A DNA stretch of 64,000 bases from an archaeon (GCA_002688355.1 NZCT01000024.1:111762-175761); one strand, 5' to 3'; counted from the stretch's first letter, positions 17,599 to 37,658 are shown. Notes: a model not told the origin generated them from the letters alone. Program-made: numbers and translations.

Positions 17599-17599
17599 A

Positions 17600-19577: not shown

Positions 19578-19628
19578 AAGATAATCACAATAGTGAAATT
19601 TATAACCTTTTCTAAGTAAATTTTAAAA

Positions 19629-20654
19629 ATGGAAAAAGAGTATAAAATTGGGATTATAGGACTTGGTAGAGTAGCTAATGAATTTGATAATGATCCAAAA
19701 AGAAAAGTAATCTGGAGTCATACAGGAGCTTATTCTAATAATCAAAAATGTAAACTAACTGCAATATGTGATTTAGATCAAGAAAAACTAAATAATTGCG
19801 CAGAAAAATATAATGTTCCTAAAACTTACACAGATTATAATGAAATGTTACAAAAAGAAGATTTAGATATTCTAAGCATTTGCACTTGGAACTCAACACA
19901 TTATCCAATTTTAAAAGCAGCAGTGGAAAATGGAGTAAAAGCAATATACTGTGAAAAACCAATAGCAAATAATCTAAAAGAAGCTGATGAAATGATAAAA
20001 CTATGCAAAGAAAATAATGTAAAACTAATGATTAACCATTGGAGACGTTTTGATGGTCTACATCCAAAAGTAAAAAAATACATTGATTCAGGTAATCTAG
20101 GAAATGTACAACAAGTTAACTTTTATTATACAGCAGGCATTGCTAACTCAGGATCGCATATGTTTGATCTACTAAGATATTTATTTGGAGATGTTTCCTG
20201 GATTGAAGCTCATTATAAAACTCAAGATGAAGATCCAAATATTGATGGACTCATAAAATTCAAGAATAATCTTCTCTGCACAATCCAATCCCTGGACGTA
20301 GATAGTTACACAAGATTTAACTTAATAATTTTTGGTACAAAAGGAAAAATAGAAATCACAAGAAATGGTTTTGACCTTGATATGTATGAAGCAAAACAAA
20401 GTGATAAATTTTCAGAATACAAAGAACTATACAAAATACCTTCAACAATAAATTTCAAAGAAGAAAGTCATATGGAACATGGAATTGCTCATTTAATAGA
20501 TTGTCTAGAAAATAATAAAACACCAATATCTAGTGGAAAAGATGGTCGTGAATCTTTATCATTAATCTGTGCTTTTCATGAATCTGCAAAAGAAGATGGT
20601 AAAAGAATACAAATACCTTTAAAAGAAAGCAACATAGAAATAAAATCGAAATAA
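19629..20654 (+). CDS. Gfo/Idh/MocA-family NAD(P)-dependent sugar oxidoreductase (WbpB-like)
   Basis: MEKEYKIGIIGLGRVANEF N-terminal Rossmann motif, ...CEKPIANNLKEADEM, and typical length. Confidence 0.7.
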   Translation: MEKEYKIGIIGLGRVANEFDNDPKRKVIWSHTGAYSNNQKCKLTAICDLDQEKLNNCAEKYNVPKTYTDYNEMLQKEDLDILSICTWNSTHYPILKAAVENGVKAIYCEKPIANNLKEADEMIKLCKENNVKLMINHWRRFDGLHPKVKKYIDSGNLGNVQQVNFYYTAGIANSGSHMFDLLRYLFGDVSWIEAHYKTQDEDPNIDGLIKFKNNLLCTIQSLDVDSYTRFNLIIFGTKGKIEITRNGFDLDMYEAKQSDKFSEYKELYKIPSTINFKEESHMEHGIAHLIDCLENNKTPISSGKDGRESLSLICAFHESAKEDGKRIQIPLKESNIEIKSK

Positions 20655-20655
20655 A

Positions 20656-22699: not shown

Positions 22700-24217
22700 A
22701 TGGCTCTCGAAACTTTAACCACAACAAATGAACAAGATAGAATAGTTAAATCTAAAGTACCAATAACACCAACTCTAGAAAAATTACTTAACCCAAATCT
22801 TCACAAAAAAGAGCCTATTTTTACAAGTCCTTTAAAAAAACCAAAAGAAGGGGAAAAAGTTTACGATCTTTCACCAGAACAAATTAAAGCAATTCAAGAA
22901 CTAAGAGGAGCAGTAGTTGATCTACATCCAGGAATGGGTGGCGTTGTTCCCAGTAAACTAATACAAATGATTGAAGATGGAATTCCAGTTACTTCATTAG
23001 ATTTTATGATGACAAAAGGATGTAACTTTGAATGTACATGGTGTTATGCTGGTTCAAGTCCATTTGCTACAGAATTTCTTCCTTTTAATAAACTAGAATC
23101 TATAACTCAAGAAGCTGCAGATATTGGAGTCAGTTTATTTATTCTTACTGGTGGTGAGCCTCTTACATATAAAGATCCTGCTTTAGGAAAAGTAAACCAT
23201 AGAGGAGAACATTTTTTCAAAGTTGTTGAGATGATCAAAAATACATACGAACGACAAGGAAAAGAAGCTAAAATTTTAACATTTGATGATGTAGCTTTAA
23301 TCAATGAAAGGATTGCAGAACAATTTGCACATTACAAAATAGGATTATGTACAAAAGGCGACACGTTACATCCTGAATTACAAGATTATAAAGTAAACCA
23401 AGTCGGAGCCTTTAAAAAAATGGAAAAAGGTAATGAAAATTTAATAAAAGTGGGTTATGGGAAAAACCCTGATCTAAGAAATGTAGTTAATTCTGTTTTT
23501 GACCATACAACTTTTGATGGAATGCCAGATCTACATATGTTAGTCAAAGAAAGAGGATTTGATCATTCAATAGTTCCCATTCATTTTTGTGGAAATGCTG
23601 GGGATGAAGATCAAGAAGCAGGGATTCACTCACCCCACGTCAAAGTTCTATATGATCTTCTTTCTAAAGTTGATGAAAAATATTTTGATGAACACTGGGA
23701 ACCTTGGTCAGCATTTACATATAATAAAACCTGTAATAGAAATTTATCAGGCCTTCATATAAGAGCAAATGGTGATGTAACTTCATGTTCAGAATCTCCT
23801 GGAAGAGATGAAACAGACAGGTATACATTTGGCAATATATTTACAGATGAAAATTTCTCCTTAGAAGAATTAGCTTTTAGTAATCGTCTTGCAAACTATA
23901 GAACAGAATTCGCAGAAGGATCTGGAACATATGTATGTGCACCAGATATTTGTGATTTAAATGCTAACGATCTATGCCGAGGTGGATGTGCAGTAAGATC
24001 AGCATATTCAGGTATTAATTATGAAACAGGTTTAATTGAAGAAGGAACAGATGTTCACAATTACAGCACACATAGAGAAGATCCTTTATGCCCAGCATGG
24101 ACAAAACTTGCATTAACACAAGGCATTCTAAAAGAAGGTTTACTTTCAGCTATTCATGAAAGATTGCTTGAAAAAAGTGAAAAATTAGATATTAAAGATT
24201 TTCCTAATCCTTACTGA
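22700..24217 (+). CDS. Radical SAM protein with C-terminal SPASM/twitch-like Cys-rich domain
   Basis: MMTKGCNFECTWCYAG (CxxxCxxC), then GGEPL. The C-terminal region has seven Cys (TSCSESPG...VCAPDICDLNANDLCRGGCAVRS). Confidence 0.7.
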   Translation: MALETLTTTNEQDRIVKSKVPITPTLEKLLNPNLHKKEPIFTSPLKKPKEGEKVYDLSPEQIKAIQELRGAVVDLHPGMGGVVPSKLIQMIEDGIPVTSLDFMMTKGCNFECTWCYAGSSPFATEFLPFNKLESITQEAADIGVSLFILTGGEPLTYKDPALGKVNHRGEHFFKVVEMIKNTYERQGKEAKILTFDDVALINERIAEQFAHYKIGLCTKGDTLHPELQDYKVNQVGAFKKMEKGNENLIKVGYGKNPDLRNVVNSVFDHTTFDGMPDLHMLVKERGFDHSIVPIHFCGNAGDEDQEAGIHSPHVKVLYDLLSKVDEKYFDEHWEPWSAFTYNKTCNRNLSGLHIRANGDVTSCSESPGRDETDRYTFGNIFTDENFSLEELAFSNRLANYRTEFAEGSGTYVCAPDICDLNANDLCRGGCAVRSAYSGINYETGLIEEGTDVHNYSTHREDPLCPAWTKLALTQGILKEGLLSAIHERLLEKSEKLDIKDFPNPY

Positions 24218-26340
24218 GCAAAAGTAGATGTATGAAAAACATGATCTTCCATTTTAGTTTCATATTTCTCTTCAGAAGATTCAACTTGATAAAATAAATC
24301 GCTTATTCTCATATATTCACTCATTTTCCTTAAAGTAAAATTCAAATTAACATTCTTAAATTGATTAATATTACTGTTCAAAGCTTCAACTTGATCATTA
24401 GGTAAATAAAATTTATAATTAATCTTTCCAGCATATTCGTGTAAATTTTTATGATAAGAATCTCGTTTCCATTTTAGCACATCAAAATCAAATTCATTAT
24501 GCTTTTCTATTTCAATTTTAAATTCCTTTTCAATATCTAAACCACTAAAATTAACTCTTAACATGCTTTCAAATTTAATAATATTATCCACAGCAGTTTC
24601 ATAATCTAAAGAAGGACTTTTCTTAGAAATTAATTCTTTAGCTATCTTTCCTAAGTAAATATCAAATTCATTTGGACAATCAGTTATAGTCTTAAAAGTA
24701 TATTGGAAATTTAACTTGCCAAATCCGCCATTCTTTAACTTTTCAAATTCTTCCTCTTTACTATAATGTTCTATTAATTCTTCTTTTGTATCAAACCATT
24801 CTCCCCTAGAGTCGTTATCAAACTCTTTTAATAATTTTTGAACTTCCTTAGGAGCGTTTTCAATATTTTCCATTACAGCAATTAAAAAATCCATAGGATT
24901 AATATCATAAGATTGAATATATTTTAACAAACCCCTATAGTATTTATAATTCCAAGTAAATTGAACTAACCATTGTAATTTCCTAAAGAAAAACAATTCT
25001 TCTTCTGACATATGTTTAGTCGACTTAACCATTTCTTCATATTCAAAAGATTTATACCCACCGTAAGTACCAAAACAAGTATCTATTAATCTAAACTTAG
25101 TCTTAATACCATTTCTTTCCCTATACTCAGGAAGAGACATCTCAGCTCCATTTAACAACCTACAATGATAAACAATTATCTGTCCAGCATCCATATCCAT
25201 TAACTCTCTTAACGCGTTTAAATGACTCTCCTTAGTCTCAAAAGGCATTCCTAGCACCATTTCAGCATCTGAATCAATACCATTATCATGAAAAAAAGTT
25301 AGTAATTCCTTATATGCATCTTGACTAATATTATCTCTTCTAATTTCCTTTAAGGTTTCTAAATTCATAGATTGTAATGACGCATCAACACTTGCTAGCT
25401 CCCCCAACATAGTTGCAATTTTCTTTATCCCATCACTTTTATTCTTAGCCCAAAATGTTGTAACTTTCCTCGGGTAACTGTGTTTATCACTTAATTCCCT
25501 CATTATCTTAGAAAATTCATAATCCCTCTCACTAAAGATTCCAAAATTAGAATCAGAAATACACAATATGTTAGTATTCTTTGTTTCTTCTACTTTTTTA
25601 GCAATATAATAAAACTCTTCTTTTATTCTATCAAATGGAAACATAGCCATCTTCTGATAATCTAAATCTCCCCATACGCAAAAAGTACAAGGATATGGAC
25701 ATCCTCTATTTGTTTCTAAATTAGGAATTAAATTATCCTCAAAAAATTCATCCATTACTCCAGTTAAATACGGAGAAGGTATAACACTAAGATCTTTAAT
25801 TACAGGAGTTTCTTCTCCTCTAATAACTTCATCTTTTTCTTTATCATAATATGCAGTATCTTTTATTACACTTTTTTTCATAAGATTAATGTCTTTATTA
25901 CACTCAAAATATTTCTCTAAAAGATTAACAAATCCAGGTTCTCCTTTATGAATTACATAAAAATCTAAATTATTTTGTTTTTGTAAATAATCTTTTATTA
26001 AATCTGGTCTTATGTGTATATTCGGTCCACCCATTACAGTCATTATTTCAGGATGTTTACTTTTTACATATTTTAACAAATTAATATTTAAATTCTCATT
26101 CCAAGCATAATTACTCAATCCAAGAATATCAGGAGGATTTTTCTCAATCTCTTCTAATAATTTATCTGGGTATTTAAATAATTTAACTGTTAGTTTATCG
26201 CCATAAATTTTATTCAGATATGCTTTAATATATCCAATATTAATTGGAAACATAAAAGGACCTTTACCAACATAATTATGTACAAGATCAGCAAAATAAA
26301 TTACAGTATTTTCTTTTTTAGATTGATTATTCATATTCAA
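24211..26340 (-). CDS. B12-binding domain / radical SAM protein (class B), 709 aa with a long C-terminal extension
   Basis: N-terminal B12-binding-like region (ILGLSNYAWN...TVMGGPNIHI), radical SAM motif TNRGCPYPCTFCVWG, and ~250 aa of additional C-terminal sequence. Confidence 0.7.
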   Translation of the reverse strand: MNMNNQSKKENTVIYFADLVHNYVGKGPFMFPINIGYIKAYLNKIYGDKLTVKLFKYPDKLLEEIEKNPPDILGLSNYAWNENLNINLLKYVKSKHPEIMTVMGGPNIHIRPDLIKDYLQKQNNLDFYVIHKGEPGFVNLLEKYFECNKDINLMKKSVIKDTAYYDKEKDEVIRGEETPVIKDLSVIPSPYLTGVMDEFFEDNLIPNLETNRGCPYPCTFCVWGDLDYQKMAMFPFDRIKEEFYYIAKKVEETKNTNILCISDSNFGIFSERDYEFSKIMRELSDKHSYPRKVTTFWAKNKSDGIKKIATMLGELASVDASLQSMNLETLKEIRRDNISQDAYKELLTFFHDNGIDSDAEMVLGMPFETKESHLNALRELMDMDAGQIIVYHCRLLNGAEMSLPEYRERNGIKTKFRLIDTCFGTYGGYKSFEYEEMVKSTKHMSEEELFFFRKLQWLVQFTWNYKYYRGLLKYIQSYDINPMDFLIAVMENIENAPKEVQKLLKEFDNDSRGEWFDTKEELIEHYSKEEEFEKLKNGGFGKLNFQYTFKTITDCPNEFDIYLGKIAKELISKKSPSLDYETAVDNIIKFESMLRVNFSGLDIEKEFKIEIEKHNEFDFDVLKWKRDSYHKNLHEYAGKINYKFYLPNDQVEALNSNINQFKNVNLNFTLRKMSEYMRISDLFYQVESSEEKYETKMEDHVFHTSTFAQ

Positions 26341-26358
26341 AAGAAATTAAAACAGTAT

Positions 26359-27405
26359 TTAAACCTTATCCCAAGTTATTCCTTCATCTTCTTTTATATC
26401 TCTCTTAGCTTCTCTTCCTACTATAACATCTAAATATCTAGGATGTAATCCTTCTAAAGATCTTTTCCTCCCAACCATATAATCTTCTATTTTAGTTCCC
26501 ATGGGAATATCAATATTTGCTACAATTCTCCTTCTTCCAGATTGCATAGCATAAATCTCTTCTCCAGTTATTTTCCTAACCTCTGATCCAAGAGATAATC
26601 TAACTTCCTTAATACCATCTGTCATTTCCTTTAACTCAATAGGATCTACAGAAATAGGATGATCAGGTGCACCTTTAATATTCTTATCAATTGTAAAATG
26701 TTTTTCAATTAACTTAGCACCCAAAACAGAAGCTGCAATCGGAATATGAATTCCTAAAGTATGATCAGAAAGTCCAACAGGTTGTTCAGGAAAAACTTTT
26801 TGTAAAGTTTGCATAAATTTAACATTAGCCTGATCTGCTGGAGTAGGATATATAACCATACAATGCAATATAATAACATCGTTATTTCCTTCATTCTTAA
26901 TAGCATTAACAGCTTCTTCAACTTCTCCAATATTACCCATTCCAACAGAAAGTATAATTGGTTTATTTTTCTTAGCAATATATCTCAAAAAAGGAATATT
27001 TGTTAAATCAGTGGAAGCAATTTTATACGCAGGAACCTCTAACTCTTCTAAAAAATCTACACTTTCTTCATCAAAAGGAGTAGATAAAAAAACAATATTT
27101 TTTTCTTTACAATAACTTACTAATTCTTTCCACTCATCTTTGCTTAAATCGTCCTGAGTTTCATATAAACTACTTTGCGTAGTTCCTTCAGCATTCTTTT
27201 CCCAAAATCTAGGAACTGTTTTAGTAACTAATTTACTTGAAGTAAATGTTTGAAATTTAATTGCGTCAGCACCACCTTCAGCAGCTTTTTCTATTAATTG
27301 CTTACCTCTCTCAAGAATACAATCATGATTGCATCCTGCTTCGGCAATTACATAAGTAGGATTATCTCCTCCAATAGATTTTTCCCCTATTTTTATTTCC
27401 CTCAT
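26359..27405 (-). CDS. N-acetylneuraminate/pseudaminate/legionaminate synthase family (NeuB-like) with C-terminal SAF domain
   Basis: MREIKIGEKSIGGDNPTYVIAEAGCNHD (NeuB N-terminal signature), TIM-barrel core, and C-terminal antifreeze-like SAF segment ANIDIPMGTKIEDYM. Confidence 0.8.
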   Translation of the reverse strand: MREIKIGEKSIGGDNPTYVIAEAGCNHDCILERGKQLIEKAAEGGADAIKFQTFTSSKLVTKTVPRFWEKNAEGTTQSSLYETQDDLSKDEWKELVSYCKEKNIVFLSTPFDEESVDFLEELEVPAYKIASTDLTNIPFLRYIAKKNKPIILSVGMGNIGEVEEAVNAIKNEGNNDVIILHCMVIYPTPADQANVKFMQTLQKVFPEQPVGLSDHTLGIHIPIAASVLGAKLIEKHFTIDKNIKGAPDHPISVDPIELKEMTDGIKEVRLSLGSEVRKITGEEIYAMQSGRRRIVANIDIPMGTKIEDYMVGRKRSLEGLHPRYLDVIVGREAKRDIKEDEGITWDKV

Positions 27406-27437
27406 AGAAAAAATATCAAAGAAATAAATATTTAAAG

Positions 27438-28421
27438 CTATTCATTAAAATTACGCTTAACTATATCTACAACTCTATCTAGTCCTTTACCATCAACTAA
27501 TTCTTGTCCCTTTTTATTCATTTTTTCTCGTAAATTATAATCACTATTTAATTTATTTACTTCATTTCTCAACTCTTCTTCTAAGATTTTAGTTCCCAAT
27601 CCTAAATAAACACTTGTTCCAAATTCAACAAATAATTTGTTTCTATTATCCTCTAATTCATTCTGCGCTAAAACTAATATAGGTAATCCAGTTGCAGCAC
27701 ATTCAAAACTTGTATATCCCCCCGAAACAATACCCACGTCTGCGTTTAACATTAATTTAGATAAATCACTTAACCCTTCATGTAGATTAACATTCTCATA
27801 ATCAGAGTTTATCTTTTCTAGTTCATTTTTATATTTAAAATTAGGAACCATAACAATATCTAATTCTAAATTAGAATCCTTCAAAGCATTAACAGTCTTT
27901 AATGTTAAGCTATTCAAATCTGAACCTCCAAAACAAACAAAAATTCTTTTATTCTCTTTATTCAAAATTCTTTTAGGTAGATTTTTATAAGAATCACTCA
28001 ATAAAGCATATTTAGGCCCATAGTAATATTCTTTTCTAGAGCCAGGATATAAAGAATTAATAACAACATTAGCAATGTTTCTAGTGTCAGTTTCTTGAGA
28101 ATGCTCCATATTTATAATAAAAATATTATTCTCTTTTAACAATTCCATATACGCCTTATTAGCATATAATAAATCATTAAAAACAACATTAGGGTTATAT
28201 TCCTTAATCAATTCAATTTGGCTTTTAATATCATCAAAATCAACTTCTTTAACATTATATCCTCTATCTTTAACAACATTCATACCTAACTTTGATTCTG
28301 AAGACATAACAAATAAAACTTCAATTTCGTCTTTGATTTTGTCAGCAATTCTCAAAGGGGTAAAAGTATGGCCCATTCCAACTTTATTATTCCCTTCTAC
28401 TCTAAAAACTATTCTTTTCAT
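27438..28421 (-). CDS. PseG-like UDP-sugar hydrolase (GT-B-like, pseudaminic acid pathway)
   Basis: MKRIVFRVEGNNKVGMGHTFTPLRIADKI matches the PseG N-terminal GxGHxxR motif. The size is 327 aa. Confidence 0.55.
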   Translation of the reverse strand: MKRIVFRVEGNNKVGMGHTFTPLRIADKIKDEIEVLFVMSSESKLGMNVVKDRGYNVKEVDFDDIKSQIELIKEYNPNVVFNDLLYANKAYMELLKENNIFIINMEHSQETDTRNIANVVINSLYPGSRKEYYYGPKYALLSDSYKNLPKRILNKENKRIFVCFGGSDLNSLTLKTVNALKDSNLELDIVMVPNFKYKNELEKINSDYENVNLHEGLSDLSKLMLNADVGIVSGGYTSFECAATGLPILVLAQNELEDNRNKLFVEFGTSVYLGLGTKILEEELRNEVNKLNSDYNLREKMNKKGQELVDGKGLDRVVDIVKRNFNE

Positions 28422-28455
28422 AATAACACTAGAATAAATATTTTTATAAAACTAA

Positions 28456-29403
28456 TCAAACTGTTATTTCTTTAGTTTTTTTAACCCATTCAACAGTTTC
28501 TTTTAATCCAAAATTTAAGTCATATAATTGTGTATATCCTAATTCATCATTAGCTTTACTTATATCTAAATAATTATGTTTTAAATCTCCAGTAAAAGGC
28601 CCAGAATATTCTGGTTTAACATCTTTATCTAAGAAGTTATTTATAATAAAAACTAATTCATTTAAACTTGTAGGAATACCACTTCCAATATTAATTATTT
28701 CTCCGTCAAAAGCGTCATTATTCAAAGCTTGAACATTAGCATCAACCACATTTTTTACATAAACAAAATCTCTTGTCTTAATTCCCTCACCCCAAATAAC
28801 AGGATTTTCATTATTCAAAATTTTATCAATAAATTTAGGAACAGCTGCAGCATAATGCGTCTTTAAATCTTGTCTAGGTCCAAAAACATTACTTAATCTT
28901 AATATCACAGTTCTCAAACCGTAAGTTTCATGAAATAATTTACAATAATATTCTCCAAGTAATTTTGTAACAGCATAAGTGGATTTTGGCATAGGAACAA
29001 AATTCTCTTTTAAAGGTAAAACCGGATTTTCTCCATAAACAACAGAAGAACCTGCAAATAAAAATCCCTTAATATTATTTCTTCTAGCTGCTTCTAAAGC
29101 ATTATACGTTCCGTTAATATTAACATTATGATATTCAATAGGATTCTTTATAGATTCTAAAATGTACTTCAACGCCGCGTAGTGTAAAACATAATCAAAA
29201 TCCTTAAATTCCTTTTCTAAAAATTCTAAATCTGTAATATCACCTTCAACAAATTCAAATTTATCTTTAACATTCTCTAAATTATTTAAATCTCCATTAC
29301 TCAAATTATCTATAACTTTAACTTCATGACCATTAGTTATCAATTCTTCAACTACATGACTTCCAATAAATCCTGCTCCCCCTGTAACTATTACTTTTGC
29401 CAT
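28456..29403 (-). CDS. NAD-dependent sugar epimerase/dehydratase (UDP-glucose 4-epimerase-like)
   Basis: MAKVIVTGGAGFIGSHVVEEL and YAVTK (YxxxK). Confidence 0.75.
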   Translation of the reverse strand: MAKVIVTGGAGFIGSHVVEELITNGHEVKVIDNLSNGDLNNLENVKDKFEFVEGDITDLEFLEKEFKDFDYVLHYAALKYILESIKNPIEYHNVNINGTYNALEAARRNNIKGFLFAGSSVVYGENPVLPLKENFVPMPKSTYAVTKLLGEYYCKLFHETYGLRTVILRLSNVFGPRQDLKTHYAAAVPKFIDKILNNENPVIWGEGIKTRDFVYVKNVVDANVQALNNDAFDGEIINIGSGIPTSLNELVFIINNFLDKDVKPEYSGPFTGDLKHNYLDISKANDELGYTQLYDLNFGLKETVEWVKKTKEITV

Positions 29404-30663
29404 TTATTTGTAAGTTAACCCTCCAACTTTTACTTCATCTTTAAATTTTTTCAATAATTCTCTTAACTGATCTTCATTAAGGTTACTATGATCAATATTA
29501 ACATAATACTCCCCGCCTTTACCAACTTGAAAATATTTACTCCAATCAGAGTTTTCTGGTTTCATAATTTGTATACCATATTTTTCAGGATCTTCCCACA
29601 AAGGAGTACTTGGATAAGGTGTTAAAATATAAGCATCAGCATATTCCAAATTTAAACTTCTAGCAAAATTAATTGTATCTATAGCCGTCTCCCAAGTTTC
29701 TCCAGGCAAACCAATAATAAAAAATCCTTTAACTTTAATACCTGCTTTATGACACATTTCAACACCTTTTCTTTGTATATCCACTGTCATATACTTCTCC
29801 ATTTTTTTTAATACTTCATCATTTCCACTTTCCAATCCTAAACTTACAATATCGCAACCAGCATTTCTTATACTATAACATAGTTCTTGTGTCAATAAAT
29901 TAGCTCTCGTAGTACATCTCCAAGTGATATCTTTTTTAGGGAAATTTTCTGTAATCAGATTACATAGTTTTAAAACCCTATCAAATTTAAATGTGAAAAT
30001 ATCATCTCCAAAATAAAATCCCCTTATATCAAATTTATCATATAACAATCTCATCTCTTTAATAATATTCTCTGGGCTTCTTGCTCTCCATTTTTTAATT
30101 TTAGCAGATCCACAATAAACACAACTAAAGACACATCCTCTTGAGGTAACCATAACAACAGCCTTCTTACCATTTAAATCCATATCATATTTTCCCATGT
30201 TAAGATTATCATAATCTGGGAAGGGCAGTGCATCTAAATCTTCAATAGGTTTAGAAATAATAAGTTTAGTTTCATCACCTCCCAAAATTTTTTTAATAGC
30301 TTCTTCTCCATCGCCAACAACTAAATGATCAAAAGTTTCGTTACTAGTTTTTTCAGTAGGCATATCTGTAATATGATTACCTCCTGCAATTAATTTTATA
30401 TTTGGATACAATTCTCTTATTTTTTTAGCTAGTTTTATACAATCAAAATAATTTGGTGTTGAAACACTAAAACAAACATAATCATAATTATTCTTTAAAT
30501 TTTCAAATAAATATTCTTCATTATCATGATTTAAATCAATTAACTTAGAATTATAACCTAATTTTTTACAATAAGAATCCAATAAAGCTAATCCTAATGG
30601 CAATCTATCTCCTTTTTTATCTAAAAACTTATCTTCAGGATTAACAAATAAAATTGATTTCAT
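29404..30663 (-). CDS. B12-binding domain / radical SAM protein (class B), immediately downstream of pepM
   Basis: N-terminal B12-like domain ([11 protein letters not shown]) and [14 protein letters not shown] (CxxxCxxC). Its stop abuts the next ORF and its start overlaps the pepM fusion gene by 4 bp. Confidence 0.75.
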
Positions 30664-31979
30664 TTTTCTTTTATCATCCCATTCCCATCAGGGATTAAAT
30701 TAATTACTTGTTTTATTGGCATACACAAATCTTCAACTTCATGTGCCCTTTCATTTCTTAAAATAGATTCTGAAACTTTAACCATTGCTGGATACGCTGA
30801 CCTAAGTAAATGATTTGCATAGATTACCATATTAATTCCGTTATCAGCGAGTTCTTTTTCTGTTATATGTGAATATGTTGAAGGCACAACAACCAATGGA
30901 ACTTTATTTTCAAATTCTTTATACTTTTGACAAAATTCTTTAATTTCATCAAAGCTCTTTTCCTTACTATGTATCATTATAGCATCAGCTCCAGCTTCAA
31001 TATATGCCTTAGCTCTCCTTAACGCATCATCCATACCTTTCTTTAGAATCAGACTTTCAATTCTTGCTATAATCATAAAATCTTCTGTTACTTGTGCTTG
31101 TTTACCAAATTTTATTTTATTTGAAAAATCTTCTATTGTATCTTGAGTCTGCTCTACATCAGTTCCATATAAAGAATTTTTCTTTGAGCCAATTTTATCT
31201 TCTATTATAACAGCAGAAATTCCTAATCTCTCCAAAGATTTAACTGTAAAAATAAAATGTTCTGCTAATCCTCCACTATCACCATCTACAACTATTGGTT
31301 TTGTAGTAACTTCCAAAATCTGTTCAATAGTATTTATCCTTGATGTAACGTCAACAGTTGCAGTGTCTGGTTTTCCTTTTGATGTTGAATCAGTTAAACT
31401 GCTTTCCCATATTCCATCAAATTCTCTTAGCTCTCCATTATCTAAAGTAATATTAGTTTTTTCAGCTATTAAACCAGTTAAACCATTATGAGCTTCTAAA
31501 ATTCTTACAATTGGTTTTGCAGCCAATAATCTTCTTAATTTGTTTTTTCTAAGTTCAGGAGTAGTTCCCATTTCCATCATATTTTGTATTAAATCTGTTG
31601 TAGAAACATCTCTTGTGTATTCAGGTTCGATTAATTTTCCACCCCATTCTTTCATTGCTTCAACAATATCATCTCTTTTACCTTTTTGAATTCCAGTCCT
31701 CCAATCCGTACCGTGAACCATGAAATCTGCTTTTAATTTTCTAACATTAGGAACATAATCCCATGTTTCTTGAGGAATAACTTCCTTAACACCTTTTAAA
31801 TTTTCTACAACAACTTTTCTTTGTTCAAAAGTTAAAAAAGGAAGCCTCTTATAATTCGCAATAGCTTTATCTGTAAGTAAACCGACAGTTACATCTCCTA
31901 ATTTTCTCGCTTCTTTAATTATATTAAGATGACCATGATGAACTGAATCACCACTCATTGGAACATATACAATTGTCAT
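30660..31979 (-). CDS. Cytidylyltransferase-phosphoenolpyruvate phosphomutase fusion (Fom1-like CyTase-PepM)
   Basis: N-terminal [21 protein letters not shown] (HxGH nucleotidyltransferase motif, GCT/TagD-like). From ~residue 135: [27 protein letters not shown] and [16 protein letters not shown], which are PEP mutase/isocitrate-lyase superfamily signatures including the EDK motif. Confidence 0.75.
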
Positions 31980-31993
31980 TTTATTCCTCCTTG

Positions 31994-33352
31994 TTAATCA
32001 AACCACTTTTTTGTTTCATTTGCAACTCTCTCTCCACTAGGAAGATATGATAATTCTTTTTGTGTAGAAAGATTTATTGCTCCAGATATACCTAAAGTTG
32101 CAATTCTTCCATTTTCTTCTCCATTATTTGAAAAAGCATGTCTAATAAATGGTTGAATATACATTGAATCTCCTTTACGTAAAATATCATTAAAAGTTTC
32201 TCCATTATGAATCCAACTAAAATCTAAATCAGAATCTCCATAATTATAAACATAAGTATGTAATGAATTATAAAATCCATTTTCAAGATTTTTTTCTTTA
32301 GAAAGAACTTCTATCTCAAAACCTTTCATAAAAGGCATTTTAGAACTTCTAGCTAAAGGATGTAATCTATAATTTTTATTCTCTGCATTAGGATAAAAAT
32401 ATCCTTCTTCTTCATCTTTACGTTTTACTACAACAACTTCTTCATTTGGTTTATAGTCAGGAATCATTAAATCACTAATTTCAATATTTAACACATTAGC
32501 AATTTTCTGTAAATCCTCAAAAGACTTATCTTGATTTTCATCTAAAATTCTATCATCTATTGTTCCATCTAAATCTCTTAAACTTTCTAAAGAAATTCTT
32601 TCATTATCCATATGTTGTTTGATTAATTGACTAACTGCTTTGTTATGATTTCTATAATCTAATGTAAATCCTTCAATAGCTCTTTCACCTAACGCATAAA
32701 ATTCTTTTTGTGCTCTACTTATATCCCCTCCAAATGTAACAGCAATAATAAGAGCTTCGTCTTCTTTACTTCTATTAGTAAAACTATGTGGCCAAAAAGG
32801 TGTTATATAATTAGAATCACCAGTATTCATCTCTTCACAATATCTTTTCCCATTCACTTCATAATAAAAATTAACAGGGCCAATAAAAAAAGTCATTTGA
32901 TGCATAAAATGTCCATTATTATAAGCTACATCAAGATTATTTGGATCACTATTCTCAACATATCTTAATTCTTTAATCCATTCTGGTTTAAAACCACTTA
33001 GCTTTGACATTGCTGTATCTCTATAATCATAATAATCTGTTCTTTCTCCAGTTTTATCTTTTCTATCAAATATTCTACTTGTTTCTTTAGATTCTTCTTC
33101 TCTCATTATTCTTACACCATTTTTACAATCATCTTCTATAAGGTGCAAATCAGAAACATCAATAGGATAACTTAAGCCAATCTTATTTATCAATTCATAT
33201 GTTTCCTCCTTTTTACAATCCCCAGATAATATTGAATTTAGTTTTCCAGCATCCATTCCAACCTCTGTAGCACAAGCTTCTGGAGTTCTCTTTAAATCAT
33301 TTAATTCACTTAATATTCTTGAACCAACTAATTTTAAAAAATCGTCTGTCAT
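31994..33352 (-). CDS. HEPD/MPnS/HppE-family non-heme-iron bicupin oxygenase; candidate methylphosphonate synthase-like enzyme
   Basis: 452 aa with an N-terminal HTH-like segment and cupin core [22 protein letters not shown]...ITPFWPHSF. By direct count the motif residues are H148, Q152, F162, I183 and H189, a 2-His-1-Gln pattern. The gene lies inside the pepM-ppd-adh operon. Confidence 0.6.
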
Positions 33353-34128
33353 TTTCCCCTCCCGTTTGCCTTATCAAAATCTTGAACAGTATCAAACTCT
33401 TTCCAATTTCCCTGAATTATTGTACAGTGTATTTCTTCATTCTCATCTATTAATTCTTGGAAAATATCAGTTATGTAAGCTTTTTGCCATTCCTTTGTAT
33501 TTTGGAATGAATCTAGTTTCTGTAACTTTAAATTTAGTCTATCAAAATGTTTTAAAAAGATTTCTATGCCTTTATAGGTAAATTTCCAAAGTCCAATAAA
33601 CTCTCCTTGTCTATTTTTAGGTGTTTCATGAGTAAAAATATGTTTTCCAATCTTCATAATTTTTTGATTATCATCAAAAATAACATTTTCAGCTTCATCA
33701 ACTGGATGATCTGTTCTTCCTTCATAATAATCTTGCCAATCAATATCAACAACAGCGCTAATATGTTCTTTAGATATTTTTAATTTATTAACAACACTTG
33801 AACCATACCAAATATCAGAATAGCTTATTATAACATCTTCTTTTTCATTTTTAGCTTCTTCTAATTTTTCCCTTGCACAAATTAAAGAATGTAAAATGTT
33901 AGTGTTCCCAAAATCTATATTTTCAAAATATGTTAATTCTGGAAAAATAATCTTTTCTTTTTTATATCCTCTTATTACAGATATATCATTTACCCCATTT
34001 TCTCGTAAAACATCTAAAATATTCTGAAGAATTGGTTTACCTCTAATTTTTAACATGCATTTAGGCGTATCCTCCGTTAAAGGTCTTAACCTTGTAGAAG
34101 GTCCTGCTGCAATAATTATTGCCTTCAT
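33349..34128 (-). CDS. LicC-like nucleotidyltransferase (CTP:phospho-alcohol/phosphonate cytidylyltransferase family)
   Basis: MKAIIIAAGPSTRLRPLTEDTPKCMLKIRGKPIL closely follows the LicC/sugar-NTase N-terminal motif (GxGTRL). Confidence 0.65.
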   Translation of the reverse strand: MKAIIIAAGPSTRLRPLTEDTPKCMLKIRGKPILQNILDVLRENGVNDISVIRGYKKEKIIFPELTYFENIDFGNTNILHSLICAREKLEEAKNEKEDVIISYSDIWYGSSVVNKLKISKEHISAVVDIDWQDYYEGRTDHPVDEAENVIFDDNQKIMKIGKHIFTHETPKNRQGEFIGLWKFTYKGIEIFLKHFDRLNLKLQKLDSFQNTKEWQKAYITDIFQELIDENEEIHCTIIQGNWKEFDTVQDFDKANGRGK

Positions 34129-34171: not shown

Positions 34172-35317
34172 TTACATTTCTATCGTACTTAGAATTACAT
34201 TAACATCTTCTTCTGTTGGAACTTCAATACTATTAAACATTCTTTCTGGCGTGAAACCTTCTTTTGTTATTATAGATTTATCGTCAATTTTTGCATCTTT
34301 TAAAGTTAAAGGAGCACCTATTTGGGATTTTAAAGATTGGATACTATCATATAAAATTTCGAAATGATTTTTATTAATCGAAGGGAATATATATTCAACA
34401 AGACCATTTAATTTTTTTCTCACTAAATCAGATCTATCATAGTTAAATTTCAAAATTTCTGGTAAAGTCAAAGCGCAAGCAAACCCATGTTCTAAATCAA
34501 AATGAGCTGTCATTGGATAAGAAAGTGAATGTGCAGGACCTGTAGTTGTCCTACTTATAGCTATACCAGACCATAAACTCGCATACATCATTCTTTCTCT
34601 AAATTTAACTTCGTTAGGGTATTTATAGGTTTTTTCTAAATAACCAAATACTTCAGCTATATTAGTTGGAATAAAATTATCAGTTAAAGAGTTAGAATTT
34701 TTATTAAAATAAGCTTCAAATAATTGAGTCAACGCATCTAATCCAGTTGCTGCAGTGATTTTCCCAGGTAAAGATAAAGTTAATTCAGAATCTAAAATAG
34801 CATAATCAGGACTAACTATATATTTTTCAGGGCCTCCAAAAGATTGTTTCCTTTTATCTTTATAAAAAACAGAAAAAGGTGTAACTTCTGAGCCAGTACC
34901 AGCAGTAGTAGGGATAGCTACAAAAGGGACTTGTTTCTCTTTTATTTTACCTTGAGTAAAGTCTCCATTAAAACCCAAAATTGAAGTATCATTTCTATAA
35001 ACACAAGAAATAATTTTTCCAATATCCATCACAGCACCACCACCTGCACCTATGACCATATCAGAATCATATTCTATCAATTTTTCTAAAGCGTCTTGAA
35101 CTCCTTCAAGTGTTGGAGAACCTTCAACATTATTATAAACAAAAACATCTCTACCATCTAACAAATTTTTCGTTACATCTAAAAATCCTGATTTTTCAAA
35201 AGAATTCTTTCCAGTAACAAGAAATATTCTTTTTGCATCATGTTCTTGAATTATTTCTTTTAATTGATAAAGTCCATTTTCATTGCATATTTTTGTTGGA
35301 ATATTAAAATATTTCAC
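34172..35317 (-). CDS. Iron-containing (group III) alcohol dehydrogenase; candidate phosphonoacetaldehyde reductase
   Basis: GAGGGAVMDIGK glycine-rich Fe-ADH motif, with His-containing metal-site region HSLSYPMTAHFDLEHG. Its position between ppd and pepM matches the FomC/PhpC arrangement. Confidence 0.7.
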   Translation of the reverse strand: MKYFNIPTKICNENGLYQLKEIIQEHDAKRIFLVTGKNSFEKSGFLDVTKNLLDGRDVFVYNNVEGSPTLEGVQDALEKLIEYDSDMVIGAGGGAVMDIGKIISCVYRNDTSILGFNGDFTQGKIKEKQVPFVAIPTTAGTGSEVTPFSVFYKDKRKQSFGGPEKYIVSPDYAILDSELTLSLPGKITAATGLDALTQLFEAYFNKNSNSLTDNFIPTNIAEVFGYLEKTYKYPNEVKFRERMMYASLWSGIAISRTTTGPAHSLSYPMTAHFDLEHGFACALTLPEILKFNYDRSDLVRKKLNGLVEYIFPSINKNHFEILYDSIQSLKSQIGAPLTLKDAKIDDKSIITKEGFTPERMFNSIEVPTEEDVNVILSTIEM

Positions 35318-36378
35318 TTTATTGCTTCCATAAATCTCTTAGTTATTTCTTCAGGTAATAATTCAATTCTCTCAATATCTTCTAGATTGCCTTTCTTAAC
35401 ATTAACTAATAAAAAATTAGGGCCATCCAATTCCAATAATTCTTTAATAACCTTTTCTAAATTCTCCTTATCATTAACTTTTCTAGAGTTTGTATATCCA
35501 CAAGCTAAAGCAATATCTTTAATCTCAGTTGTATTTGATGTAGTTCTTTGTCCTCCTGTAGAAGACCAAGATTCATTATCTAAACAAATATGTAAAAAAT
35601 TCTTAGGTTTAATATTTCCAATTGTAGATAAAACTCCAAGATGCATTAAAGCAGCACCATCACCATCTAAAACAATTATTTTCTCTTTAACTTCTTTAGC
35701 AATACCCAATCCAATAGATGAAGCATGACCCATTGAACCAATAACATAAAAATTTTTAGGAGCATCATCCGCTTTATTTAACTCTCTTGAGATCATTCCA
35801 GTAGTAGAAATTCTAATCATATCTTTTGTATTATTTGCTATTAATTCTACAGCGTCATATCTAGACATTTCGTAATTTGTTTTATGTTGAGATTCATATT
35901 TTTCTATAAATTCAGGATTAACAATTAAAGCTACTGTACTTGTATTTTCCAATTCATCATTAGCCCATTTAATATCATCAAAAGATTCTAAAACTTTAGA
36001 TTTAATATTAGCTAATTCTAAAAACTCTTTAGTATTCTCCCCCATATACCAATGTTCAGGAGCATCTTTTTTATTAGCAGGATTACCTCTCCATCCAACT
36101 AATAATAAACTTTTAGTGTTGTACAAATTATTCAAAGAAGTTTGAGGGTTAATTAAATTCCCAATACCAGCATTTTGCATCATTACAACAGGTTTTTTCC
36201 CAGTTAAATAAGAACCAGCACCTCTTGAAAAAGCTAAACCTTCATTAACATCAGGAATATATTCATTTTTCAAAGTATCTAAATAATTAAAAAATCCACC
36301 AAATGAAGAATCAGCAACACCCATAAAAGGACCAAAATTATATTTTTTCAATTCTTGATACAATTCTTCAGGTTTCAT
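35314..36378 (-). CDS. Phosphonopyruvate decarboxylase-like thiamine-diphosphate enzyme
   Basis: TPP-binding motif GSMGHASSIGLGIAKEVKEKIIVLDGDGAALMHLG (GDG...N). The 354-aa size and gene context with pepM support the call. Confidence 0.7.
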   Translation of the reverse strand: MKPEELYQELKKYNFGPFMGVADSSFGGFFNYLDTLKNEYIPDVNEGLAFSRGAGSYLTGKKPVVMMQNAGIGNLINPQTSLNNLYNTKSLLLVGWRGNPANKKDAPEHWYMGENTKEFLELANIKSKVLESFDDIKWANDELENTSTVALIVNPEFIEKYESQHKTNYEMSRYDAVELIANNTKDMIRISTTGMISRELNKADDAPKNFYVIGSMGHASSIGLGIAKEVKEKIIVLDGDGAALMHLGVLSTIGNIKPKNFLHICLDNESWSSTGGQRTTSNTTEIKDIALACGYTNSRKVNDKENLEKVIKELLELDGPNFLLVNVKKGNLEDIERIELLPEEITKRFMEAIK

Positions 36379-36390
36379 ATAGTTTTTTAG

Positions 36391-37149
36391 ATGGAAATGT
36401 TTAAAAGTTTATTCCATAAATGTCTACAAATGGTAGAGTCAATTAAAAAACTAAGAGAAATTTGCCAAAAACCTGTAACTTTTAATTCATTTTATCAAAG
36501 AATAATGGCAAGAAGATTTTCCATTTACTTAGTATGGTTATTAATTCCTTTCAAAGTTTCTGGCAATCTAGCATCTTTCTTAATGTTATTAACTGGAATA
36601 ACTGCATCAATATTTTTTACAGTCGGAAGTTACTGGTTTTACGTTATCGGAACTTTACTTTTACAGTTATGGTTTGTCCTAGATCACGCAGATGGTGAAT
36701 TAGCACGTTACTGGAAAAAAGCATCTACAAAAGGTATTTTCATCGATAAACTAACTCACCATATTGTCCATCCATTAATTTTCTTAGGATTAAGTATTGG
36801 ATTATACAAACAATTTAACAATCCTATAATGTTAATCTTAGGTGCCTTTACAGCATATTTTCTATTACTTCAAGATCTAATAAACATAGATAAAGTTGAA
36901 GCCATTAGAATAGCTTCTAAAATTAAAACTAAAAATAACAAAGAAGAAAAATTAACTCTAAAAAATTCTTTATTTACAAAAGTTACTTCTGTAGTTTACA
37001 AAATACCAGGTTTAATGAACATAGTAACAATTTCAGCTATTTTAAACATATTACACTTTACATTTTTCTTTTATGCAGTAACATTTCCAATAATGATATT
37101 ACTAAAATTAATTTACAATTTAAAAATTCCAGAGGAACAATTTAAATGA
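36391..37149 (+). CDS. CDP-alcohol phosphatidyltransferase-family membrane protein
   Basis: FVLDHADGELARYWKKASTKGIFIDKLTHH approximates D-G-x2-A-R...G-x3-D. It has several TM helices and is divergently oriented from ppd with a 12-bp gap. Confidence 0.5.
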   Translation: MEMFKSLFHKCLQMVESIKKLREICQKPVTFNSFYQRIMARRFSIYLVWLLIPFKVSGNLASFLMLLTGITASIFFTVGSYWFYVIGTLLLQLWFVLDHADGELARYWKKASTKGIFIDKLTHHIVHPLIFLGLSIGLYKQFNNPIMLILGAFTAYFLLLQDLINIDKVEAIRIASKIKTKNNKEEKLTLKNSLFTKVTSVVYKIPGLMNIVTISAILNILHFTFFFYAVTFPIMILLKLIYNLKIPEEQFK

Positions 37150-37658
37150 AAACCTTAGATTTAGGTTGTGGACATCATAAAGTAAAAGGAGCATTTGGTG
37201 TAGATTTTATTAAATTACCAGGAGTTGATTTTGTCTGGGATTTGAACAAAACATTACCAAAAGAATTTCATAATGAATACGATGTAGTTTACTCAAATGG
37301 TGTAATTGATCATCTTGGAAATCCTCTAAATTTTTTAGAAGGATGTAAAAAATACCTAAAGAAAGATGGGAAACTAATAACTATTGTCGATAACGGAGAT
37401 TATTGGAGATATCACTTACATCTAGGAAATTATCACGCGGACTTGTGGGAAAAAGATTTTCCAGATCATCCTGAAACACATCATAAAATGTTATTTCAAA
37501 TGAAACACATAGAAAAAATATTAAAATTATTAGATTTTAAAGTAACAAATAAAAAATACATAAGACTAACAGGAACTTGGAAAGATTATCATATAGATTA
37601 TTTATTGCCAAAATTTATTGGCTGTAATTTCATGAAAATAGAAGCTATAAAAAATTAA
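37146..37658 (+). CDS. Putative SAM-dependent methyltransferase
   Basis: MKTLDLGCGHHKVKGAFGVD (motif I, LDLGCG). Confidence 0.45.
   Translation: MKTLDLGCGHHKVKGAFGVDFIKLPGVDFVWDLNKTLPKEFHNEYDVVYSNGVIDHLGNPLNFLEGCKKYLKKDGKLITIVDNGDYWRYHLHLGNYHADLWEKDFPDHPETHHKMLFQMKHIEKILKLLDFKVTNKKYIRLTGTWKDYHIDYLLPKFIGCNFMKIEAIKN

What the first reader, a model, noticed from the sequence alone, without database searches (positions are those of the whole stretch)
32786..32911. 2-His-1-Gln metal-site pattern (H148-x3-Q152 ... F162 ... H189) in the 452-aa bicupin: methylphosphonate-synthase-like rather than HEPD-like
Counting directly from the translation, the cupin motif [20 protein letters not shown]...[11 protein letters not shown] places His at 148, Gln at 152, Phe at 162, Ile at 183 and His at 189. 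The literature on Nitrosopumilus MPnS describes iron ligation by H148, Q152 and H190, with F162 and I184 as the second-sphere residues that let Gln bind, in contrast to HEPD. My recollection of those residue numbers is good but not perfect. Near-identical numbering and a Gln rather than Glu at the +4 position argue that this enzyme converts 2-HEP to methylphosphonate. It is also nearly collinear with the thaumarchaeal enzyme (452 vs ~457 aa).
Basis: partly seen in the sequence, partly recalled or inferred. Interest (0 to 1): 0.85.

Follow-up and report, generated by a model that had tools for sequence, protein, structure and literature searches.

The report
Methylphosphonate synthase gene in marine archaeon
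This gene almost certainly encodes methylphosphonate synthase, the already known iron enzyme that makes the ocean's methane precursor methylphosphonate; the modest news is that it sits in a tiny Woesearchaeota-like marine archaeon, a group not previously listed among producers.

Summary
These align residue for residue with H148/Q152/F162/I184/H190 of Nitrosopumilus maritimus MPnS (PDB 6b9s, E=6e-93). That five-residue pattern is a published diagnostic for mpnS. The protein also keeps the family's invariant substrate-pocket residues, models onto MPnS at TM 0.90, nests inside an all-HQFIH clade, and scores 86 bits higher on an MPnS-type profile than on a HEPD-type profile. It lies in an operon-like run with PEP mutase, phosphonopyruvate decarboxylase and an iron alcohol dehydrogenase, which together supply 2-HEP.

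One correction is needed. The Gln is not the discriminator. Class-II HEPD (S. albus) has it too, and the Glu ligand of class-I HEPD lies at the position equivalent to 184, not at His+4. Phe162 and Ile183 carry the argument.

The enzyme kind is known, and homologues are already annotated as methylphosphonate synthase. This copy is listed only as "hypothetical protein [archaeon]" and is about 41% identical to the characterised archaeal enzyme. The host is a 28% GC Woesearchaeota-like DPANN archaeon. The cassette sits in a surface-glycan island next to two cytidylyltransferase-type enzymes.

Verdict: a new member of a known kind, of low to moderate interest.

The parts
31994..33352 (-). mpnS-like gene: 452-aa HTH + bicupin non-haem Fe(II) oxygenase, predicted methylphosphonate synthase
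   Evidence: ORF. PDB phmmer: 6b9s MPnS E=6e-93, 6b9r SaHEPD E=3e-65. AF2 model pLDDT 95.5. Foldseek TM 0.90 to 6b9s/6b9t. Identical to NCBI 'hypothetical protein CL617_03620 [archaeon]'.
32786..32911 (-). Metal-site segment of the N-terminal cupin, H148 to H189 (the finding's coordinates)
32909..32911 (-). His148 codon, predicted Fe ligand (= MPnS H148)
   Evidence: Invariant in 241/241 HQFIH and HQYGH homologues.
32897..32899 (-). Gln152 codon, predicted Fe ligand (= MPnS Q152). Shared with class-II HEPD, so not discriminating.
32867..32869 (-). Phe162 codon, second-sphere marker (= MPnS F162; Tyr in SaHEPD-type)
32804..32806 (-). Ile183 codon, second-sphere marker (= MPnS I184; Gly in SaHEPD-type; Glu ligand position in class-I HEPD)
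32786..32788 (-). His189 codon, predicted Fe ligand (= MPnS H190)
35314..36378 (-). Phosphonopyruvate decarboxylase (Ppd), first gene of the cassette
   Evidence: TIGR03297 331.5 bits, above the 312.5 cut-off. Homologue found in 52/80 related loci.
34172..35317 (-). Fe-dependent alcohol dehydrogenase, predicted phosphonoacetaldehyde reductase making 2-HEP. Overlaps the Ppd stop by 4 nt.
   Evidence: PF00465/PF25137. TIGR03405 Phn_Fe-ADH 192 bits, below its 424 cut-off. Homologue in 67/80 related loci.
33349..34128 (-). LicC-like nucleotidyltransferase (259 aa). Its stop codon overlaps the mpnS ATG (ATGA). Predicted phosphonate cytidylyltransferase.
   Evidence: PF00483/PF12804. Best PDB match is LicC 1jyk, E=1.5e-15. 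Homologue near mpnS in 55/80 loci. Fused to MPnS homologues in P0022, P0025, P0121 and P0134. Junction sequence.
30660..31979 (-). Bifunctional Fom1-type cytidylyltransferase + PEP mutase (439 aa)
   Evidence: TIGR02320 408 bits, above the 319.6 cut-off. EDKx5NS motif at residue 260. N-terminal domain matches the Fom1 CyTase domain 5x3d, E=4e-49.
36391..37149 (+). CDP-alcohol phosphatidyltransferase-family membrane protein, divergent from Ppd. Candidate transferase for the CMP-activated phosphonate (inferred).
   Evidence: PF01066. 63-65% identical copies lie beside Ppd in the two closest DPANN loci, L002 and L012.
37146..37658 (+). Small SAM-methyltransferase-like gene co-oriented with the CDP-alcohol transferase. 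Role unknown; membership of the cassette is tentative.
   Evidence: PF13489. 78% identical copy in L002.

Best explanation
The ORF encodes a genuine methylphosphonate synthase (EC 1.13.11.73).

Inferred pathway, from family assignments:
- The PEP-mutase domain converts PEP to phosphonopyruvate.
- Ppd decarboxylates phosphonopyruvate to phosphonoacetaldehyde.
- The Fe-ADH reduces phosphonoacetaldehyde to 2-hydroxyethylphosphonate (2-HEP).
- The bicupin binds Fe(II) through His148, Gln152 and His189. It binds 2-HEP with Lys21 (from the partner subunit), Arg97, Tyr110 and Asn145. It uses O2 to cleave the C1-C2 bond, giving methylphosphonate plus CO2.

Phe162 and Ile183 pack against Gln152 and hold it on the iron. 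This feature distinguishes MPnS from the otherwise near-identical class-II HEPD, which has Tyr and Gly there and makes hydroxymethylphosphonate plus formate.

Inferred from context: the product, and possibly 2-HEP as well, is then CMP-activated. Either the translationally coupled LicC-like nucleotidyltransferase or the Fom1-type cytidylyltransferase domain, or both, would do this. The activated phosphonate would then be transferred to a cell-surface glycan or lipid of a Woesearchaeota-like marine archaeon.

Shown here: sequence, alignment, fold, phylogenetic placement and gene context. Not shown: any enzymatic activity, or the acceptor of the phosphonate.
For: (1) All five diagnostic positions match MPnS: H148, Q152, F162, I183=I184, H189=H190. 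They also match the published criterion 'mpnS: H148 Q152 F162 I/V184 H190' (PMC9381506 Suppl. Table S2). PMC11978286 describes the 2-His-1-Gln triad plus Phe and Ile as required for MPn synthesis.
(2) Census of 269 homologues plus 2 PDB references: 218 HQFIH, 23 HQYGH. The query is HQFIH.
(3) NJ tree rooted on SaHEPD: the query sits in a 75-tip clade that is entirely HQFIH, and 16 of 19 HQYGH sequences are basal.
(4) Profile test independent of close relatives: 582.7 bits on the MPnS-type HMM against 496.5 on the HEPD-type HMM. The scores remain 573 against 506 after in-silico F162Y/I183G.
(5) K21, R97, Y110 and N145 align with Nm K28, R102, Y110 and N145 and are invariant or nearly so in the family.
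(6) AF2 model pLDDT 95.5; TM 0.90 and rmsd 2.0 A to 6b9t, MPnS with 2-HEP and Fe(II).
(7) Complete 2-HEP supply pathway in the same tightly packed gene run: PepM and Ppd above NCBIfam equivalog cut-offs, plus an Fe-ADH. There are 4-nt overlaps and Shine-Dalgarno-like motifs. The cassette's G+C is native, 0.291 against 0.278 +/- 0.015.
(8) The same neighbours recur around homologues in 80 GTDB genomes: PepM 57, Ppd 52, ADH 67, NTP-transferase 55.
(9) JGI names several homologues 'methylphosphonate synthase'.
Against: No biochemical data exist for this protein or for any member of its roughly 50-60%-identity clade.

It is only 41% identical to the characterised N. maritimus enzyme. The Phe/Ile rule rests on two natural enzymes and one engineered HEPD (Born et al. 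2017, known to me from memory of its abstract; the paper was not held in the library).

The fold cannot separate MPnS from class-II HEPD: TM 0.90 against 0.89-0.90.

Three HQYGH sequences nest inside the wider MPnS-type clade, so reaction outcome has switched more than once and is not purely a clade property.

The roles of K28, R102, Y110 and N145 as 2-HEP-binding residues come from my memory, not from a retrieved source.

DPANN archaea are often associated with low-oxygen niches, the enzyme needs O2, and the oxygen level of the Tara sample was not checked.
Confidence: 0.85

Rival explanations
1. It is a class-II 2-hydroxyethylphosphonate dioxygenase (HEPD). It would use the same substrate and metal site but release hydroxymethylphosphonate plus formate.
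For: It has the same fold and the same 2-His-1-Gln site. SaHEPD 6b9r matches at E=3e-65 and TM 0.89-0.90. The 2-HEP pathway context is equally compatible.
Against: The two positions that define the HEPD outcome are Phe and Ile here, not Tyr and Gly. The query scores 86 bits lower on the HEPD-type profile. It sits in an all-HQFIH clade.
Confidence: 0.05
2. It is an MPnS-fold oxygenase with a different physiological substrate. Candidates are CMP-2-HEP made by the Fom1-type cytidylyltransferase domain, or a methylated 2-hydroxyalkylphosphonate. In that case the cluster's end product would not be methylphosphonate.
For: The PEP mutase carries a Fom1-type CyTase domain (5x3d, E=4e-49), and in fosfomycin biosynthesis that domain makes CMP-2-HEP (PMC6697681). 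A B12-radical-SAM gene abuts the PEP mutase with a 4-nt overlap. A nucleotidyltransferase is translationally coupled, and elsewhere fused, to the enzyme.
Against: The radical-SAM gene belongs to a separate module. The set rSAM-epimerase-unknown-NeuB-rSAM709 is conserved at 60-84% aa identity in related Woesearchaeota contigs that lack PepM, Ppd, ADH and MPnS, and it occurs near only 2 of 80 other mpnS loci. Some of its homologues are fused to sugar epimerases. All residues aligned with the free-2-HEP pocket of MPnS are conserved. CyTase-PepM fusions accompany HQFIH homologues in many lineages, including SAR86 and Prochlorococcus.
Confidence: 0.07
3. It is a non-functional or mis-binned gene, that is, a decaying copy or a bacterial contig wrongly assigned to an archaeon.
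For: The gene family is spread patchily across very distant phyla, which implies horizontal transfer. The NCBI label is only 'archaeon'.
Against: The ORF is intact and full length, with every invariant family residue present. G+C is native. The gene sits on a 224-kb scaffold. On that scaffold, PGK and the radical-SAM gene have their best named hits in Woesearchaeota/Nanoarchaeota, and an archaeal-type S-layer protein is present. The closest mpnS loci are also from DPANN MAGs and share flanking genes at 57-78% identity.
Confidence: 0.03

Closest known systems
Methylphosphonate synthase MPnS of Nitrosopumilus maritimus (Nmar_0155; PDB 6b9s/6b9t)
   Same: Collinear HTH-bicupin of 452 against 457 aa. 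Identical residues at the Fe ligands (H, Q, H), at the Gln-adjacent markers (F, I) and at the aligned pocket residues (K, R, Y, N). TM 0.90. Lies beside PepM, Ppd, an Fe-ADH and a nucleotidyltransferase within a polysaccharide-type gene neighbourhood.
   Different: Only about 41% identical. It has a 5-residue insertion before the PYYEYRDT motif and lacks one residue after position 165. The host is a Woesearchaeota-like DPANN archaeon rather than an ammonia-oxidising thaumarchaeon. The PEP mutase here is a Fom1-type CyTase fusion, whereas tblastn hits in thaumarchaeal loci cover only the mutase part. The gene is co-oriented and translationally coupled with the LicC-like gene, which in Nitrosopumilus loci lies about 1.2 kb away on the opposite strand.
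Class-II HEPD of Streptomyces albus (PDB 6b9r)
   Same: Same fold (TM 0.89-0.90), the same 2-His-1-Gln positions and the same pocket residues.
   Different: Tyr163 and Gly184 in place of Phe162 and Ile183. About 32% identity. The query scores 86 bits lower on the HEPD-type profile.
Class-I HEPD PhpD of Streptomyces viridochromogenes (PDB 3g7d, 4yar)
   Same: Bicupin fold, 2-HEP substrate, Fe(II)/O2 chemistry.
   Different: 15-16% identity, TM 0.72-0.74. It uses a 2-His-1-Glu triad whose Glu lies at the position equivalent to MPnS 184. It was not detected by sequence search.
Fom1 / LicC-PntC nucleotidyl activation of phosphonates (Rice et al. 2019, PMC6697681)
   Same: The cassette contains both nucleotidyltransferase types described there: PF01467 fused to PEP mutase, and a PF00483/PF12804 LicC-like enzyme.
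   Different: The substrates tested in that work were 2-AEP and 2-HEP. Activation of methylphosphonate itself is an inference here, and no acceptor is known.

Membership tests
Methylphosphonate synthase (MPnS, EC 1.13.11.73, KEGG K18049) | Full-length homology to the HEPD/MPnS HTH-bicupin family | tested here: met
   6b9s E=6.2e-93 over residues 3-452. TM 0.90, rmsd 2.0 A.
Methylphosphonate synthase (MPnS, EC 1.13.11.73, KEGG K18049) | 2-His-1-Gln iron triad at H148, Q152, H190 | tested here: met
   H148, Q152, H189 align to these positions. Criterion from PMC9381506 Table S2 and PMC11978286.
Methylphosphonate synthase (MPnS, EC 1.13.11.73, KEGG K18049) | Gln-adjacent residues Phe162 and Ile(/Val)184 | tested here: met
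   F162 and I183 (=184).
Methylphosphonate synthase (MPnS, EC 1.13.11.73, KEGG K18049) | Conserved 2-HEP pocket residues (Nm K28', R102, Y110, N145; their roles recalled from memory) | tested here: met
   Query K21, R97, Y110, N145. All are invariant or nearly so in both MPnS-type and HEPD-type sets.
Methylphosphonate synthase (MPnS, EC 1.13.11.73, KEGG K18049) | Co-location with genes that supply 2-HEP (PepM, Ppd, phosphonoacetaldehyde reductase) | tested here: met
   TIGR02320 408 bits and TIGR03297 331 bits, both above cut-off, plus an Fe-ADH, in the same gene run.
Methylphosphonate synthase (MPnS, EC 1.13.11.73, KEGG K18049) | Catalysis: 2-HEP + O2 -> methylphosphonate + CO2 | not testable with these tools
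   Requires an in vitro assay.
Class-II HEPD (S. albus type) | Tyr163 and Gly184 flanking the Gln ligand | tested here: not met
   Phe and Ile at these positions.
Class-I HEPD (PhpD type) | 2-His-1-Glu triad with Glu at the position equivalent to 184, and Ala at 152 | tested here: not met
   Gln152 and Ile183 are present. 15-16% identity to 3g7d/4yar.
HppE (2-hydroxypropylphosphonate epoxidase) | Roughly 190-200-aa single HTH-cupin protein with a 2-His-1-Glu site | tested here: not met
   Only a weak local match: 5u55 E=0.0034; 2bnm TM 0.33 on the query. The protein is a 452-aa bicupin.

The most novel reading that the evidence does not exclude
Small-celled Woesearchaeota-like DPANN archaea of the oxygenated ocean are an unrecognised biological source of methylphosphonate. 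They would activate it as a CMP conjugate, using the LicC-like enzyme that is translationally coupled here and physically fused to MPnS in other organisms. They would then esterify it onto their S-layer or surface glycans or lipids. This would add a new archaeal lineage, and a concrete attachment route, to the 'aerobic methane paradox' cycle.
Probability: 0.4. Interest if true: 0.5.

Novelty: new member of a known kind. Interest (0 to 1): 0.3.

Why it matters
Methylphosphonate is the proposed precursor of methane made in oxygenated sea water, so knowing which organisms can make it matters for marine methane and phosphorus budgets. Published surveys that I could read list Thaumarchaeota and a 'Crenarchaeota archaeon' as the archaeal carriers, and several bacterial orders. 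No held paper links DPANN archaea with MPnS.

This window is one of at least five DPANN-labelled genomes with the full HQFIH signature, which extends the producer list. The recurrent coupling or fusion of a LicC-like nucleotidyltransferase to MPnS also gives a testable handle on how methylphosphonate becomes esterified to macromolecules. The enzyme itself is not new.

Tried and rejected
(1) Fosfomycin-like reading. The cassette has a Fom1-type CyTase-PepM, Ppd, an Fe-ADH, an adjacent B12-radical-SAM gene and a cupin, which superficially mirrors fom1/fom2/fomC/fom3/fom4. I rejected this for four reasons:
- The radical-SAM gene (29404-30663) travels with an epimerase, NeuB and a second rSAM in related contigs that have no phosphonate genes.
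- It is near only 2 of 80 other mpnS loci.
- Its relatives are sometimes fused to sugar epimerases, and it falls far below the PhpK-family cut-off.
- The cupin is a 452-aa bicupin, not HppE.

(2) Using the fold to decide between MPnS and HEPD. This was uninformative: TM 0.90 against 0.89-0.90.

(3) Reading the primary papers. Born et al. 2017 (DOI and PMC5901744) and Metcalf et al. 2012 (PMC3466329) are not held. I used secondary sources instead.

(4) A literature search for the 2-HEP-binding residue names returned nothing. A broad 'Gln152' search returned noise.

(5) Horizontal-transfer signal in base composition: none. The cassette G+C lies within the window's range.

(6) The window's own genome is not among the GTDB representatives; the best locus is 56% identical. 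Host placement therefore rests on PGK and rSAM best hits, not on a marker-gene phylogeny.

(7) The Rfam and tRNA scans found only one tRNA-Ser and nothing related to the finding.

Full report
**Observation.** The window carries a 452-aa ORF on the minus strand at 31994-33352. Its translation contains [20 protein letters not shown]...[11 protein letters not shown], with His148, Gln152, Phe162, Ile183 and His189. The codons of His148 and His189 are 32911-32909 and 32788-32786, exactly the limits given in the finding.

**Homology and residue correspondence.** A sequence search of all PDB chains returns three relatives:
- N. maritimus methylphosphonate synthase, 6b9s/6b9t, 457 aa, E=6.2e-93, aligned over query residues 3-452.
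- Streptomyces albus HEPD, 6b9r, E=3e-65.
- The epoxidase HppE, weakly, E=0.0034.

Counting along the printed alignment, query residues 106-165 carry the same numbers as MPnS. So H148, Q152 and F162 are literally the same positions. MPnS has one extra residue after about position 165, which makes query I183 equal to MPnS I184 and query H189 equal to MPnS H190. S. albus HEPD has H149, Q153, Y163, G184 and H190 at the same columns.

The recalled literature numbers are correct. Supplementary Table S2 of Lockwood et al. 2022 gives 'mpnS: H148, Q152, F162, I/V184, H190' and 'hepD: H148, A/Q152, I/Y162, E/G184, H190' as the residues used to validate these genes (PMC9381506). [quoted passage not shown] Born et al. 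2017, the primary source, was not held in the library.

**A correction to the reasoning.** That is not the discriminator. I aligned 269 homologues, taken from a 5.8-billion-protein search and from a search of 1.84 billion cluster representatives, together with the two PDB references. Gln at this column is invariant both in the 218 sequences with the MPnS pattern HQFIH and in the 23 with the S. albus HEPD pattern HQYGH. In class-I HEPD (PhpD) the Glu ligand lies at the position equivalent to MPnS 184, six residues before the second His, not at His+4 (see also the PDB title 'HEPD E176H'). The case rests on Phe162 and Ile183, and the query has both.

**Independent support for the MPnS assignment.**
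- In a neighbour-joining tree of 219 full-length family members rooted on S. albus HEPD, the query sits in a 75-tip clade that is entirely HQFIH. The 203-tip clade that also holds N. maritimus MPnS contains 184 HQFIH sequences. Sixteen of the 19 HQYGH sequences branch outside it.
- I built one profile from 63 HQFIH members that are less than 45% identical to the query, and another from 19 HQYGH members. The query scores 582.7 bits on the first and 496.5 on the second. After changing F162Y and I183G in silico the scores are still 573 and 506, so the preference does not depend on the two markers alone. N. maritimus MPnS and S. albus HEPD behave as expected in the same test.
- A further correlated position, His151 (His in 191 of 218 MPnS-type sequences, Tyr in 13 of 23 HEPD-type), also matches the MPnS type.
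- The residues that align with MPnS K28, R102, Y110 and N145 are K21, R97, Y110 and N145 in the query. I recall these as the 2-HEP pocket. They are invariant or nearly so across the family.
- An AlphaFold2 model built on a 90-sequence alignment is highly confident (mean pLDDT 95.5). It superposes on MPnS with substrate and Fe(II) at TM 0.90 and rmsd 2.0 A. It superposes on S. albus HEPD almost equally well (TM 0.89-0.90), so the fold cannot decide between the two activities. PhpD follows at TM 0.72-0.74.

**Gene context.** The gene lies in a tight minus-strand run:
- phosphonopyruvate decarboxylase, 35314-36378, TIGR03297 331 bits, above cut-off;
- an iron alcohol dehydrogenase, 34172-35317;
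- a 259-aa nucleotidyltransferase, 33349-34128;
- the mpnS-like gene;
- a 439-aa PEP mutase, 30660-31979, TIGR02320 408 bits, above cut-off.

The PEP mutase has the EDKx5NS motif. The nucleotidyltransferase stop overlaps the mpnS start (ATGA), and a GGGAGGGG motif precedes the start. The cassette's G+C (0.291) is typical of the window (0.278 +/- 0.015). The whole route PEP -> phosphonopyruvate -> phosphonoacetaldehyde -> 2-HEP -> methylphosphonate is therefore encoded.

Around homologues in 80 GTDB species genomes the same partners recur: PEP mutase in 57, decarboxylase in 52, alcohol dehydrogenase in 67 and the nucleotidyltransferase in 55. Seventy-four of the 80 homologues carry HQFIH.

**Fate of the product (inferred).** The N-terminal domain of the PEP mutase matches the cytidylyltransferase domain of Fom1 (5x3d, E=4e-49). 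In fosfomycin biosynthesis that domain makes CMP-2-HEP (PMC6697681). The 259-aa enzyme is most similar to the phosphocholine cytidylyltransferase LicC (1jyk, E=1.5e-15), the family that includes phosphonate-specific PntC enzymes. In several other organisms this nucleotidyltransferase is fused to the N-terminus of the MPnS homologue, for example the roughly 708-aa proteins P0022, P0025, P0121 and P0134. A CDP-alcohol-phosphatidyltransferase-family gene (36391-37149) lies divergently next to the decarboxylase, and is found there at 63-65% identity in the two closest DPANN loci.

The rest of the window is almost entirely surface-glycan biosynthesis, with glycosyltransferases, epimerases, NeuB and an S-layer protein. 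The likely end point is a CMP-activated phosphonate transferred to a surface glycan or lipid. That is analogous to what is proposed for N. maritimus, but nothing here tests it.

**A rival reading that was examined and set aside.** A Fom1-type mutase, a decarboxylase, an alcohol dehydrogenase, an abutting B12-radical-SAM gene (29404-30663) and a cupin resemble the fosfomycin genes. However, the radical-SAM gene belongs to a different module. The run rSAM-epimerase-unknown-NeuB-second rSAM is conserved at 60-84% amino-acid identity in related Woesearchaeota contigs that have no PepM, Ppd, ADH or MPnS nearby. It is found near only 2 of 80 other mpnS loci, and some relatives are fused to sugar epimerases.

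**Host.** The exact protein is deposited as 'hypothetical protein CL617_03620 [archaeon]' on a 224-kb Tara Oceans scaffold. The window's phosphoglycerate kinase has its best named hits in Candidatus Woesearchaeota and Nanoarchaeota. The radical-SAM gene is 82-84% identical to Woesearchaeota proteins. An archaeal-type S-layer protein is present, and the G+C is 28%.

The nearest MPnS homologues, at 52-60% identity, are in MAGs labelled Nanoarchaeota, Woesearchaeota and Pacearchaeota, interleaved with Berkiella, Phycisphaerae and Campylobacterota. Nitrosopumilus enzymes are only 39-40% identical. The family has clearly moved horizontally.

**Novelty.** The enzyme kind, its diagnostic residues and its usual neighbours are all published, and JGI already names homologues 'methylphosphonate synthase'. 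What is new is modest. This particular gene is unannotated, it belongs to a clade with no characterised member, and the host lineage (DPANN) is absent from the lists of MPnS carriers in the papers I could read and from every paper retrieved by combined searches. I rate it a new member of a known kind, with interest about 0.3. Activity, the CMP-activation step and the acceptor remain to be shown experimentally.

Noticed in passing
window 15543-18331 (+), then 18309-21909 (+): There is an ATP-citrate-lyase-like trio: ATP-grasp_2 + Citrate_bind; CoA_binding + Ligase_CoA; and a 243-aa protein matching only the C-terminal half of citrate synthase. It sits directly upstream of a CMP-sugar-type cytidylyltransferase, a GFO/IDH/MocA oxidoreductase and a DegT aminotransferase. 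This is an odd location for ACL-like genes and suggests an acyl-CoA-forming step in sugar modification.
   Followed up: no
window 24211-30663 (-); L082-L085: The five-gene module B12-rSAM(419)-epimerase-unknown(327)-NeuB-B12-rSAM(709) is conserved at 60-84% aa identity in related Woesearchaeota contigs. It is probably a nonulosonic-acid pathway with two radical-SAM tailoring steps. In those relatives the phosphonate cassette is absent, so the cassette is a variable add-on to this glycan island.
   Followed up: partly
P0022, P0025, P0121, P0134 (proteins of about 708-711 aa from other metagenomes): These are natural fusions of the LicC-like nucleotidyltransferase to the N-terminus of an MPnS homologue. 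They are a Rosetta-stone link between methylphosphonate synthesis and nucleotidyl activation.
   Followed up: partly
L063, L065, L069, L074 (MAGs labelled uncultured Methanosarcinales archaeon): These loci have HQFIH-signature MPnS homologues. Their CyTase-PepM is 64-65% identical to the window's, and in L063 and L074 a SPASM radical-SAM is 66-68% identical to the window's. An O2-dependent enzyme in a nominally anaerobic order suggests mis-binned DPANN contigs or horizontal transfer.
   Followed up: no
L014, L022, L052 (HQHTH), L015 (HQHHH), L078 (HQYIH), L079 (HQYGH): Several homologues have unusual residues at the two second-sphere positions. His/Thr or His/His occur in actinomycetes (Frankia symbiont, Pseudonocardiaceae, Amycolatopsis). 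Tyr/Ile occurs in a Chloroflexota MAG. The full HEPD-type Tyr/Gly occurs in a Marine Group I thaumarchaeote. Their reaction outcomes are unknown.
   Followed up: no
L050 versus L049: A locus labelled 'Patescibacteria group bacterium' has the same gene order, spacing and identities as a Thaumarchaeota locus. The contig is probably mis-binned.
   Followed up: no
window 60203-63871 (-) and 54272-56548 (-): A 1222-aa ORF with no Pfam match lies a few kb from a 758-aa S-layer-like protein (PF05124). The S-layer gene has the highest G+C in the window, 0.363.
   Followed up: no
window 6853-8292 (-), 22700-24217 (+), 24211-26340 (-), 29404-30663 (-): The window holds four radical-SAM genes, three of them with B12-binding domains, and two CDP-alcohol phosphatidyltransferase-family genes (11461-12129 and 36391-37149). 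That is an unusually radical-SAM-rich glycan locus for a small-genome archaeon.
   Followed up: no
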